Below are positions 62,846 to 64,000 of a DNA stretch of 64,000 nucleotides, in pieces. The notes under the pieces were generated by a model. That model ran no database searches. It saw only the letters and a program-made list of their open reading frames with translations, and was not told the DNA's origin. Source of the DNA: Escherichia coli (lineage in GTDB: Bacteria; Pseudomonadota; Gammaproteobacteria; Enterobacterales; Enterobacteriaceae); the NCBI RefSeq assembly GCF_036507355.1, contig NZ_AP027877.1. One strand, given 5' to 3'. Made by a program: the position numbers and the translations under genes. Numbering within the stretch: position 1 is the first letter of the stretch; each line of letters begins with the position of its first letter.

Positions 62846-63432
62846 AAAGCTACACCAACCTGTAGGTTGTAGATCCCTTTCTATAATTAATAGATATAAG
62901 AACTGTACAGTTGTCAATATGAAAATCCACTCACAAACAATACCGATAATTATAGTTGCAGGCCGCAATTATTATTACCTTAGTGCTTTATACATTCTTT
63001 GCGACAGACAGGCTTGCAAATATTTATAAATGGTTATAAGGAAACCCTTATAAAACATTCATTCATAGATATATTAGGAATAACAATTGAATCCGTGAGT
63101 ACAGTAACGCTGCATTTCATCAGGACTTTCGAAAAATCCGAAATCATGCATCGGAATTTACTGATTTAATTATTTTACTCCTAACTTATTTTGAAAAAGG
63201 CATTGGGATTTATACCGTATTCCTGAAGATCCTCATCATTGGAATGGATTTTCGGACGAGAAAAGGATTTTATATGGACACTCTGCTCATCATTTCTTCT
63301 TCTCATCATCAACAATTCACGTCTCTCTTCCGCGTTTAATAACGGATTATGAGGTGCAAAAAATATCTTTCTTTTCAGTTACCTGTCATTAGATACAGAG
63401 AGAAATTTTGGCAATACATGGAGTAATACAGG
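62846..63432 (+). promoter_or_regulatory. pgaABCD promoter and long 5' leader
   Basis: 587-bp A+T-rich gap with several GGA motifs, one overlapping the ribosome-binding site (acaGGAtg), consistent with CsrA-controlled leaders. Confidence 0.6.
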
Positions 63433-64000
63433 ATGTATTCAAGTAGCAGAAAAAGGTGCCCGCAAACCAAATGGGCTTTGAAAATTCTTACTGCCGCATT
63501 TTTAGCAGCGAGTCCCGTGGCGAAGAGTGCCGTTAATAACGCCTATGATGCATTGATTATTGAAGCTCGCAAGGGAAATACTCAGCCAGCTTTGTTATGG
63601 TTTGCACAAAAATCAGCACTCAGTAATAACCAAATTGCTGACTGGTTACAGATAGCCTTATGGGCCGGGCAAGATAAACAGGTTATTACCGTTTACAACC
63701 GCTACCGTTATCAGCAATTACCAGCGCGTGGTTATGCAGCTGTCGCCGTCGCTTATCGTAACCTGCAACAATGGCAAAACTCGCTTACACTGTGGCAAAA
63801 GGCGCTCTCTCTGGAGCCGCAAAATAAGGATTATCAACGGGGACAAATTTTAACCCTGGCAGATGCGGGTCACTATGATACTGCGCTGGTTAAACTTAAG
63901 CAGCTTAAATCTGGAGCACCGGACAAAGCCAATTTACTCGCAGAAGCCTATATCTATAAACTGGCGGGGCGTCATCAGGATGAATTACGGGCGATGACAG
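63433..64000 (+). CDS. pgaA: PGA export porin PgaA, N-terminal part, continues beyond window
   Basis: Open frame from ATG 63433 to the window end: MYSSSRKRCPQTKWALKILTAAFLAASPVAKSAVNNAYDALIIEARKG... (signal peptide plus TPR-like region). Confidence 0.88.
   Translation, partial: MYSSSRKRCPQTKWALKILTAAFLAASPVAKSAVNNAYDALIIEARKGNTQPALLWFAQKSALSNNQIADWLQIALWAGQDKQVITVYNRYRYQQLPARGYAAVAVAYRNLQQWQNSLTLWQKALSLEPQNKDYQRGQILTLADAGHYDTALVKLKQLKSGAPDKANLLAEAYIYKLAGRHQDELRAMT

What the first reader, a model, noticed from the sequence alone, without database searches (positions are those of the whole stretch)
62846..63445. pgaA leader rich in GGA motifs
Multiple GGA triplets occur in the 250 nt before pgaA, including one overlapping the ribosome-binding site and one at the start codon (caGGAtg). 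This fits multi-site CsrA repression of pga translation. The upstream dgcT and the damaged phosphodiesterase add a c-di-GMP control layer.
Basis: partly seen in the sequence, partly recalled or inferred. Interest (0 to 1): 0.35.

Follow-up and report, generated by a model that had tools for sequence, protein, structure and literature searches.

The report
Known CsrA-controlled pgaA mRNA leader
This is the well-studied untranslated leader of the E. coli biofilm-polysaccharide operon pgaABCD, which the RNA-binding protein CsrA uses to shut the operon off; the copy here is ordinary except for a few strain-specific base changes.

Summary
The + strand has 9 GGA triplets in the roughly 235-nt stretch before pgaA (ATG at 63433). 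One lies in the Shine-Dalgarno sequence (63420) and one overlaps the start codon (63431).

The region is the orthologue of the E. coli K-12 pgaA 5' UTR, with 7 differences over 286 nt. Published experiments on that leader show six CsrA sites. CsrA blocks translation at the SD/AUG pair. It also opens a weak hairpin (+61..+107, here 63258-63304), which exposes a Rho entry site and terminates transcription early. All of these elements are intact here.

- Only 5 of the 9 GGAs match mapped CsrA sites, and one mapped site appears to be AGAGA rather than GGA.
- The two upstream mapped sites sit in a stem by design, so "GGA in stems" would not refute CsrA control.
- GGA density alone is weak evidence (p about 0.02), and other stretches of the window are equally dense.

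dgcT is intact. pdeT is cut by IS1.

Strain-specific details: a lineage G-to-A change (63214) breaks a conserved 5'-terminal hairpin that carries an invariant GGA in its loop. A rare G-to-A change (63256) creates an extra GGA.

Verdict: already known, low interest.

The parts
63198..63432 (+). pgaA 5' untranslated leader, 235 nt. The +1 position is projected from the K-12 234-nt leader.
   Evidence: Alignment to K-12. The published +61..+107 hairpin coordinates fit only if +1 = 63198. The transcription start was not measured here.
63187..63192 (+). Candidate -10 hexamer TATTTT of the pgaA promoter (inferred).
   Evidence: It lies at -11..-6 relative to the projected +1 and aligns with TATAGT in Citrobacter. 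The consensus scan found no strong sigma-70 match on this strand.
63199..63216 (+). Remnant of the conserved 5'-terminal hairpin (GGCAU-loop-AUGCC in K-12), with GGA 63206-63208 in the loop. Here the C-G pair is broken by A at 63214.
   Evidence: Folds: K-12 -6.7 kcal/mol, window -1.8 kcal/mol. Pair 4-17: CG in 14, UG in 1, unpaired in 2 of 17 distinct alleles. The loop GGA is kept in 82 of 82 sequences.
63222..63256 (+). Predicted stable hairpin that holds GGAs +44 (63241) and +49 (63246) in paired positions. These are not mapped CsrA sites. The private/rare GGA at +57 (63254-63256) lies at its 3' foot.
   Evidence: The A at 63256 is absent from the closest relatives L014-L016. It is present in two K-12-like genomes.
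63258..63278 (+). Left arm of the anti-terminator hairpin (+61..+81). It carries CsrA sites BS1 (AAGGA, 63263-63267) and BS2 (AUGGA, 63274-63278).
   Evidence: Identical to K-12. Function comes from PMC4052769.
63279..63327 (+). C-rich, G-poor Rho entry (rut) region. Its first 26 nt (63279-63304, +82..+107) form the right arm of the hairpin.
   Evidence: Hairpin recovered by folding. C/G ratio is at least 2 in 78-nt windows from +53 to +169, and +82..+145 holds 21 C against 4 G.
63274..63339 (+). 21-codon upstream ORF (MDTLLIISSSHHQQFTSLFRV) starting at the BS2 AUG. Probably not functional as a peptide.
   Evidence: substitutions fall evenly on codon positions (5/5/4), and its length and sequence differ in Citrobacter. 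Mutating its AUG had no effect in PMC4052769.
63342..63346 (+). ACGGA, inferred to be CsrA site BS3.
   Evidence: PMC4066749 Table 2 cites ACGGA (no source given in the excerpt read) and AGAGA (cited to glgC and Wang 2005). Present in 74 of 82 sequences.
63397..63403 (+). AGAGAGA run, inferred to be the non-GGA CsrA site BS4. The lineage G-to-A change at 63404 abuts it.
   Evidence: The position is inferred and was not read from the original footprint.
63418..63424 (+). AUGGAGU: Shine-Dalgarno sequence and CsrA site BS5.
   Evidence: Invariant in Escherichia alleles; Citrobacter has CAGGAC at the same place.
63429..63435 (+). CAGGAUG: CsrA site BS6, overlapping the pgaA start codon.
   Evidence: UACAGGAUGUAU is invariant from Escherichia to Citrobacter.
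63433..64000 (+). 5' part of pgaA (PGA export porin). It runs off the end of the window.
   Evidence: Annotated as pgaA in thousands of E. coli genomes.
61487..62845 (-). dgcT (ycdT): diguanylate cyclase, MASE4 + GGDEF, intact, transcribed divergently from pgaA.
   Evidence: The GGEEF motif and an RxxD motif are visible in the translation.
60195..61389 (-). pdeT (vmpA): CSS-EAL phosphodiesterase truncated after codon 398 of 536.
   Evidence: EAL profile positions 2-107 of 236 only. The full gene is present in relatives. The window diverges from them at 60194.
59427..60194 (-). IS1 copy that truncates pdeT.
   Evidence: IS1 terminal repeat at 60172-60194 and the IS1 left-end sequence at 59427. 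insA/insB ORFs are.

Best explanation
Window 63198-63432 is the 5' untranslated leader of the pgaABCD operon of an Escherichia/Shigella-type chromosome. It is orthologous to the experimentally dissected K-12 leader, and it most likely works the same way. When free CsrA is abundant it acts at two places. First, it binds the AAGGA/AUGGA pair (63263-63278) on the left arm of a marginally stable hairpin. This melts the hairpin and uncovers the C-rich rut region (63279 to about 63327), so Rho terminates transcription inside the leader. Second, on transcripts that escape termination, it binds the AUGGAG (Shine-Dalgarno) and CAGGAUG (start codon) pair, excludes the ribosome and destabilises the mRNA. 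When CsrA is titrated by CsrB/CsrC/McaS, the hairpin hides rut and the ribosome-binding site is free, so PGA synthesis genes are expressed. Shown here: orthology, retention of every element, the fold of the hairpin, the C>G bias, and cross-genus conservation of four GGA-containing islands. Taken from the literature and not tested here: CsrA binding, Rho termination, the start site, and the exact positions of the two middle sites.
For: Gene context dgcT <-> pgaA is identical to K-12 and to thousands of E. coli genomes. There are 7 differences from K-12 over 63150-63435, and none falls inside the core of BS1, BS2, BS3, BS5 or BS6. Folding recovers the published discontinuous hairpin at exactly +61..+107. 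The C/G ratio is at least 2 across the published rut interval. The whole leader is no more structured than shuffles (z = +1.08). Four islands are conserved between Escherichia and Citrobacter (PgaA 73-74% identical): the 5' hairpin with GGA in its loop, AAAGGAUUUNAUAUG, the Shine-Dalgarno GGA, and UACAGGAUGUAU. Among 82 sequences (28 alleles) the GGAs at +9, +49 and the Shine-Dalgarno are essentially invariant. Published mechanism: PMC4052769 and PMC7652899.
Against: Nothing contradicts it. Several caveats apply. The GGA excess over shuffles is modest (p about 0.02). No binding, termination or start-site data exist for this allele. BS3 and BS4 positions are inferred from a secondary source. 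csrA, rho and the rest of pgaABCD lie outside the window; pgaABCD is intact in three close relatives. This lineage carries a stem-breaking change in the conserved 5' hairpin (63214), and its effect on regulation is unknown. Leclercia (PgaA 50% identical) has no comparable GGA array, so the arrangement is confined to close relatives.
Confidence: 0.9

Rival explanations
1. The GGA triplets are a compositional accident of an AT-rich intergenic region and have no regulatory role.
For: The excess over dinucleotide shuffles is only about 2.3 sd (106 of 5000 shuffles reach 9). About seven other stretches of the window are equally GGA-dense. Four of the nine GGAs are not mapped CsrA sites.
Against: The sequence is orthologous to a leader where CsrA binding, toeprints and site mutations have been published. 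GGA cores stay invariant while flanking bases vary across 28 alleles and across genera.
Confidence: 0.02
2. Attenuation works through translation of the 21-codon upstream ORF (63274-63339). Ribosomes on the uORF would cover rut and block Rho. CsrA would act by repressing uORF translation, because AAGGA lies 6 nt before its AUG like a Shine-Dalgarno sequence.
For: AAGGAUUUNAUAUG, an SD-like element plus AUG at ideal spacing, is invariant from Escherichia to Citrobacter. The ORF keeps its frame and stop codon in all Escherichia alleles examined.
Against: [quoted passage not shown] Substitutions show no codon-position bias (5/5/4). The ORF is 20 and 10 codons with unrelated sequence in the two Citrobacter. 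The conservation is equally explained by the CsrA sites themselves.
Confidence: 0.04
3. In this particular strain the leader is drifting. In an IS-laden, possibly Shigella-like genome the pga/c-di-GMP module may be under relaxed selection, so the private and lineage G-to-A changes would be early decay and regulation would be altered or lost.
For: pdeT is cut by IS1 and a second IS1 lies 2.4 kb away. The nearest complete genome, 14EC033, has a frameshifted pgaA and an IS1 between pgaB and pgaC. The 63214 change breaks an otherwise universally kept base pair. No complete E. coli genome carries it.
Against: All mapped CsrA site cores, the hairpin and rut are unchanged. The first 189 pgaA codons are open. 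pgaABCD is full length in three relatives with the same dgcT and the same leader, apart from the private 63256 change.
Confidence: 0.12
4. The leader is controlled mainly by direct base pairing with the small RNA McaS, rather than by CsrA binding.
For: A McaS target site was proposed within the rut region (Thomason 2012, as cited in PMC4052769).
Against: PMC4052769 reports that deleting the proposed target does not abolish McaS activation, and that activation is lost in a deltaL deltacsrA background. McaS is described as a CsrA-sequestering RNA.
Confidence: 0.02

Closest known systems
E. coli K-12 pgaABCD 5' UTR (Wang et al. 2005; Figueroa-Bossi et al. 2014, PMC4052769)
   Same: Same locus and same divergent dgcT neighbour. 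The sequence has 7 differences over 286 nt. The SD/AUG CsrA pair, the +61..+107 hairpin with two CsrA sites, and the rut region are identical.
   Different: There is one extra A in the A-run (63358-63363). G-to-A at +17 breaks the 5'-terminal hairpin. G-to-A at +59 creates a ninth GGA. G-to-A at +207 lies beside the AGAGA run. There are two changes at -20 and -13 in the promoter. The neighbourhood carries pdeT (absent from K-12), here truncated by IS1.
glgC leader of E. coli, the textbook CsrA target
   Same: A CsrA dimer bridges an upstream GGA site and a site overlapping the Shine-Dalgarno sequence to block the ribosome (PMC7652899).
   Different: glgC has two sites and only translational control. 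The pgaA leader has six mapped sites and adds Rho-dependent attenuation. In glgC the high-affinity site is in a hairpin loop, whereas in pgaA the functional upstream sites are in a weak stem.
5'-terminal stabilising stem-loops of bacterial mRNAs, such as the ompA 5' UTR (recalled from general knowledge, not tested)
   Same: In most alleles the pgaA transcript begins with a 5-bp hairpin 1 nt from the 5' end. This is the geometry that protects against 5'-end-dependent decay.
   Different: The loop carries an invariant GGA. No role in stability or CsrA binding has been reported for it in the papers read, and it is disrupted in this window.

Membership tests
pgaABCD leader of Escherichia (CsrA/Rho-controlled 5' UTR) | Lies immediately upstream of pgaA and is divergent from dgcT/ycdT | tested here: met
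   ORFs and Pfam domains. The annotation of matching E. coli records gives the same arrangement.
pgaABCD leader of Escherichia (CsrA/Rho-controlled 5' UTR) | Sequence orthology to the K-12 234-nt leader | tested here: met
   There are 7 differences over 63150-63435. Among E. coli genomes that hold the region, 4217 of 4251 cover at least 80% of it.
pgaABCD leader of Escherichia (CsrA/Rho-controlled 5' UTR) | [quoted passage not shown] | tested here: met
   AUGGAGU at 63418-63424 and CAGGAUG at 63429-63435 are identical to K-12 and conserved in Citrobacter.
pgaABCD leader of Escherichia (CsrA/Rho-controlled 5' UTR) | Weak hairpin +61..+107 with two CsrA sites on the left arm and rut on the right arm | tested here: met
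   RNAfold returns the published discontinuous hairpin at 63258-63304 (-6.4 kcal/mol; -9.0 with two extra pairs). The C>G bubble is confirmed.
pgaABCD leader of Escherichia (CsrA/Rho-controlled 5' UTR) | Two further mapped CsrA sites in the middle of the leader | tested here: inconclusive
   ACGGA (63342) and the AGAGA run (63397) are present. Their identity as BS3 and BS4 is inferred from PMC4066749 Table 2. The original paper was not available.
pgaABCD leader of Escherichia (CsrA/Rho-controlled 5' UTR) | Physical CsrA binding, Rho-dependent termination and the transcription start at +1 | not testable with these tools
   These are known only for the K-12 allele from the literature.
Any Rfam RNA family | Match to a curated covariance model | tested here: not met
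   There is no hit in 62846-63445 at the gathering threshold. At E <= 1 the only hit is a chance-level CRISPR-repeat match at 62866-62887. The pgaA leader has no Rfam model among those searched.
Canonical high-affinity CsrA site (GGA in the loop of a short hairpin) | GGA presented unpaired in a hairpin loop | tested here: not met
   In K-12-type alleles only the +9 GGA fits (P unpaired 0.89-0.96), and it is not a mapped site. In this window that hairpin is broken. BS1 and BS2 are in a stem. BS5 and BS6 are in a weakly structured region.

The most novel reading that the evidence does not exclude
The 5'-terminal hairpin (+2..+19 in K-12) could be an unrecognised functional element of the pga leader. 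Its loop GGA is invariant in 82 of 82 sequences, from Escherichia to Citrobacter, while the neighbouring loop bases vary. It might be a seventh CsrA contact, since it lies 59 nt from BS1, within the 10-63 nt span a CsrA dimer can bridge. It might instead be a 5' stabiliser. The lineage of this window has knocked it out with a single G-to-A change at 63214, which would give naturally altered PGA regulation.
Probability: 0.15. Interest if true: 0.3.

Novelty: already known. Interest (0 to 1): 0.1.

Why it matters
It matters little beyond annotation. The pgaA leader is one of the best-characterised CsrA targets, and finding it intact upstream of pgaA is expected. Three points are useful. Counting GGAs overestimates CsrA sites. 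The stems-versus-loops criterion does not apply to this leader. This strain offers natural variants that could be used to ask whether the conserved 5' hairpin has a role: a broken 5' hairpin, an extra GGA, and an IS1-inactivated pdeT next to an intact dgcT.

Tried and rejected
- **Original paper and related sources.** Wang et al. 2005, Goller 2006, Jonas 2008 and Thomason 2012 were not held. No supplements were held for PMC4052769. The exact footprints of BS3 and BS4, the NhaR sites and the dgcT leader map therefore could not be read.
- **Rfam.** There was no family for the leader, only chance-level hits.
- **Promoter scan.** No sigma-70 consensus match was found on the + strand near the projected start. 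The promoter is activator-dependent (NhaR), so this is not informative.
- **Whole-transcript equilibrium folds.** I used these to ask whether the lineage changes occlude the ribosome-binding site. The answer changed with the 3' boundary, so I rejected it as not robust. One search also used a wrong coordinate (63409 instead of 63404); one search corrects this.
- **Covariation for the 5' hairpin.** The pairs are almost invariant, so counts neither support nor refute the structure.
- **Genome contigs protein scan.** It returned only 4 loci. Leclercia has no alignable leader.
- **Metagenome scan.** It returned 64 loci, mostly common E. coli alleles. BS1 and BS6 were part of the search pattern, so their conservation in that set is not evidence.
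- **uORF as a coding element.** Rejected, because there is no codon-position bias.

Full report
**What is there.** The interval 62846-63445 is the intergenic region between dgcT/ycdT and pgaA, plus the first codons of pgaA.
- dgcT runs 61487-62845 on the - strand. It has MASE4 and GGDEF domains, is 452 aa long and is intact.
- pgaA starts at ATG 63433 on the + strand, and its frame is open to the end of the window.
- 4203 of 5426 complete E. coli genomes hold the 600-nt interval, always annotated next to pgaA.
- K-12 shows the same dgcT <-> pgaA arrangement.
- No complete E. coli genome is closer than 99.0%, either over the leader or over the first 25 kb of the window. The source is therefore an Escherichia/Shigella-type chromosome from a poorly sampled lineage.
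- Three draft assemblies encode an identical DgcT. They share the whole intergenic region except one base (63256), and they carry full-length pgaABCD.

**The observation.** On the + strand there are 13 GGAs in the interval.
- Nine lie between the projected transcription start and the start codon, at 63206, 63241, 63246, 63254, 63265, 63276, 63344, 63420 and 63431.
- GGA 63420 is inside the GGAG Shine-Dalgarno sequence.
- Dinucleotide shuffles of the leader give 5.5 +/- 1.5 GGAs, and 106 of 5000 shuffles reach 9.
- The stretch is in the top 0.3% of 238-nt windows of the 64 kb.
- This is against a background where GGA is under-represented.
- About seven other stretches of the window are equally dense.

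**What it is.** Alignment to K-12 shows 7 differences across 63150-63435:

| Window position | Position relative to +1 | Window | K-12 |
|---|---|---|---|
| 63178 | -20 | C | A |
| 63185 | -13 | C | T |
| 63214 | +17 | A | G |
| 63256 | +59 | A | G |
| 63358-63363 | +161 | extra A in the A-run | one A fewer |
| 63387 | +190 | C | A |
| 63404 | +207 | A | G |

The K-12 leader is 234 nt and has been dissected experimentally.
- Six CsrA sites have been mapped. [quoted passage not shown]
- The two 5'-proximal sites sit on the left arm (+61..+81) of a marginally stable hairpin. Its right arm (+82..+107) is the first half of a Rho entry site.
- CsrA binding melts the hairpin and triggers Rho-dependent termination (PMC4052769).

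Placing +1 at 63198 makes the published hairpin coordinates coincide exactly with the structure RNAfold returns for 63258-63304: GAGAA.AGGA...AUGG paired with UCAU..UUCU.UUCUC.
- The published C>G bubble is present. The C/G ratio is at least 2 from +53 to +169, and +82..+145 has 21 C against 4 G.
- The leader as a whole is not more structured than shuffles (z = +1.08). That fits a Rho substrate.
- Rfam has no model for it.

**Which GGAs matter.** By position, five of the nine GGAs coincide with mapped sites:
- BS1: AAGGA at 63263-63267.
- BS2: AUGGA at 63274-63278.
- BS5: AUGGAGU at 63418-63424.
- BS6: CAGGAUG at 63429-63435.
- BS3, by inference: ACGGA at 63342-63346.

The sixth mapped site appears to be the AGAGA run at 63397-63403, which is not a GGA (PMC4066749 Table 2). 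This assignment is inferred, because the original paper was unavailable.

The other four GGAs lie upstream of the mapped sites.
- In PMC4052769, mutations in the BS1 region abolished CsrA binding to a +1..+137 RNA that still carried the +9, +44 and +49 GGAs. Those three GGAs are therefore not sufficient for binding on their own.
- GGAs +44 and +49 are predicted to be buried in a stable local hairpin (P unpaired 0.01 for +49).
- GGA +57 (63254) exists only because of the G-to-A change at 63256. That change is absent from the closest relatives. It is absent from 3851 of the 3853 complete E. coli genomes holding that 91-nt stretch, and it recurs independently in two K-12-like strains. It changes the predicted energy of the anti-terminator hairpin by only 0.2 kcal/mol.

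**Loops or stems.** Folding shows BS1 and BS2 are paired (P unpaired 0.01-0.37). BS5 and BS6 lie in weakly structured sequence. For this leader the pairing of BS1 and BS2 is the switch itself, so that criterion does not apply.

**Comparative evidence.** A protein-anchored scan of species-representative genomes found pgaA in:
- a divergent Escherichia (80% PgaA identity);
- two Citrobacter (73-74%);
- Leclercia (50%).

Between Escherichia and Citrobacter the leader is conserved only in islands:
- GCAU-N-(A/G)GGA-NN-UAUGC at the very 5' end;
- AAAGGAUUUNAUAUG (BS1 and the start of BS2);
- a GGA in the Shine-Dalgarno sequence;
- UACAGGAUGUAU (BS6).

Leclercia shows no such array. A DNA-pattern scan of metagenomes added 64 loci, giving 82 sequences and 28 distinct alleles in total. 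GGA retention in that set:

| GGA | Sequences retaining it (of 82) |
|---|---|
| +9 | 82 |
| +44 | 80 |
| +49 | 80 |
| Shine-Dalgarno | 82 |
| +79 | 75 |
| +147 | 74 |

BS1 and BS6 were part of the search pattern in the metagenome set, so they do not count as evidence there. In the 6-sequence cross-genus alignment, 3 of 9 GGA triplets are fully invariant, against 9.7% of all leader triplets (hypergeometric p = 0.046).

**What is particular to this window.** In K-12 and nearly all alleles the transcript starts with a 5-bp hairpin, GGCAU/AUGCC, at -6.7 kcal/mol. The invariant GGA is in its loop (P unpaired 0.89-0.96 in the K-12 leader).
- The window and its three relatives carry A at 63214. This turns the C-G pair into C·A and collapses the hairpin to -1.8 kcal/mol.
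- Among 17 distinct 5' alleles, that pair is CG in 14, UG in 1 and broken only in these 2.
- The stem is too invariant for covariation to say anything.
- Whether this hairpin is a CsrA contact, an mRNA stabiliser or neither is unknown.
- Equilibrium folds of the whole transcript gave boundary-dependent answers, and I did not use them.

**Neighbourhood.** The c-di-GMP remark is correct in substance.
- dgcT is intact, and the literature read lists it as a direct single-site CsrA target.
- pdeT/vmpA is an accessory phosphodiesterase gene that lies next to dgcT in some strains and is absent from K-12 (PMC4287979).
- Here pdeT keeps 398 of 536 codons and less than half of the EAL domain, because an IS1 (59427-60194) is inserted or abuts it.

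**Alternatives.**
- A 21-codon uORF (63274-63339) starts at the BS2 AUG, with AAGGA at Shine-Dalgarno distance. The element is conserved, but the ORF shows no coding signature. Its AUG was shown to be dispensable.
- Direct McaS pairing was tested and set aside in PMC4052769.
- Pure chance is excluded by orthology to a mapped leader.

**Verdict.** The finding is real and correctly interpreted, but it describes a textbook regulatory element. Novelty: already known. Interest: 0.1. The only non-trivial residue is the conserved 5'-terminal GGA-loop hairpin, which has no role described in the papers read, and its natural disruption in this lineage.

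Noticed in passing
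window 59427-60194 and 56243-57010: Two IS1 copies in opposite orientation flank a 2.4-kb segment. The segment holds an FtsX/MacB-type permease gene (57149-58459), a 218-aa ORF and a 65-aa fragment that may be a truncated upstream gene (59100-59297; no Pfam match). The right-hand copy also truncates pdeT, so one IS1 has probably deleted everything between that fragment and the middle of pdeT.
   Followed up: partly
window 62826-62900, - strand: The dgcT translation start also carries GGAs. AAAGGGAUC lies about 30 nt upstream, and AUGGAA overlaps its start codon (ATG at 62845). A small hairpin, CUACAACC/GGUUGGUGUAG, lies between them. dgcT/ycdT is cited as a single-site CsrA target, so both divergent genes of this intergenic region answer to CsrA.
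   Followed up: partly
window 63274-63339, + strand: A 21-codon uORF (MDTLLIISSSHHQQFTSLFRV) lies inside the pgaA leader. Its SD-like AAGGA and its AUG are conserved as far as Citrobacter, but the peptide is not. There is no codon-position bias.
   Followed up: yes
whole window: GGA/TCC is under-represented relative to dinucleotide expectation: 1444 observed against 1600 +/- 31, and all 100 shuffles were higher.
   Followed up: no
window 33141-33403, 35566-35980, 37019-37306 and 46526-46776 (+ strand); 8741-8979, 40644-40951 and 49496-49769 (- strand): These other 238-nt stretches hold 9-10 GGAs on one strand, as dense as the pgaA leader. I did not examine them.
   Followed up: no
window 4895-5231, 2866-3034, 26962-27011, 46281-46372, 36142-36184 and 51972-52059: Rfam and ARAGORN hits elsewhere in the window: the rne 5' UTR element, SraB sRNA, the PyrC leader, the ES056 and ES036 sRNAs, and tRNA-Ser(GGA). 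All are as expected for the rne-flg-csg-pga stretch of an E. coli-type chromosome.
   Followed up: no
window 52252-56150: Four - strand ORFs here (328, 314, 462 and 191 aa) have the lengths and order of the intact ycdU, ACP S-malonyltransferase, hypothetical 462-aa and lipoprotein-sorting-like genes annotated in strain 14EC033. K-12 has only an IS3-truncated remnant (ymdE). So this window seems to keep a fuller version of that island; identity was not tested.
   Followed up: partly
locus L002 (E. coli 14EC033, NZ_CP024147.1): This is the complete genome with the most similar leader (99.0%). It has a frameshifted pgaA and an IS1 between pgaB and pgaC, which suggests the pga operon is decaying in at least one related strain.
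   Followed up: no
window 1-25000: The best complete E. coli genome is only 99.0% identical over 25 kb of core genes (rne, flg, murJ). The source is therefore probably a Shigella or an under-sampled Escherichia lineage. The organism was not identified.
   Followed up: partly
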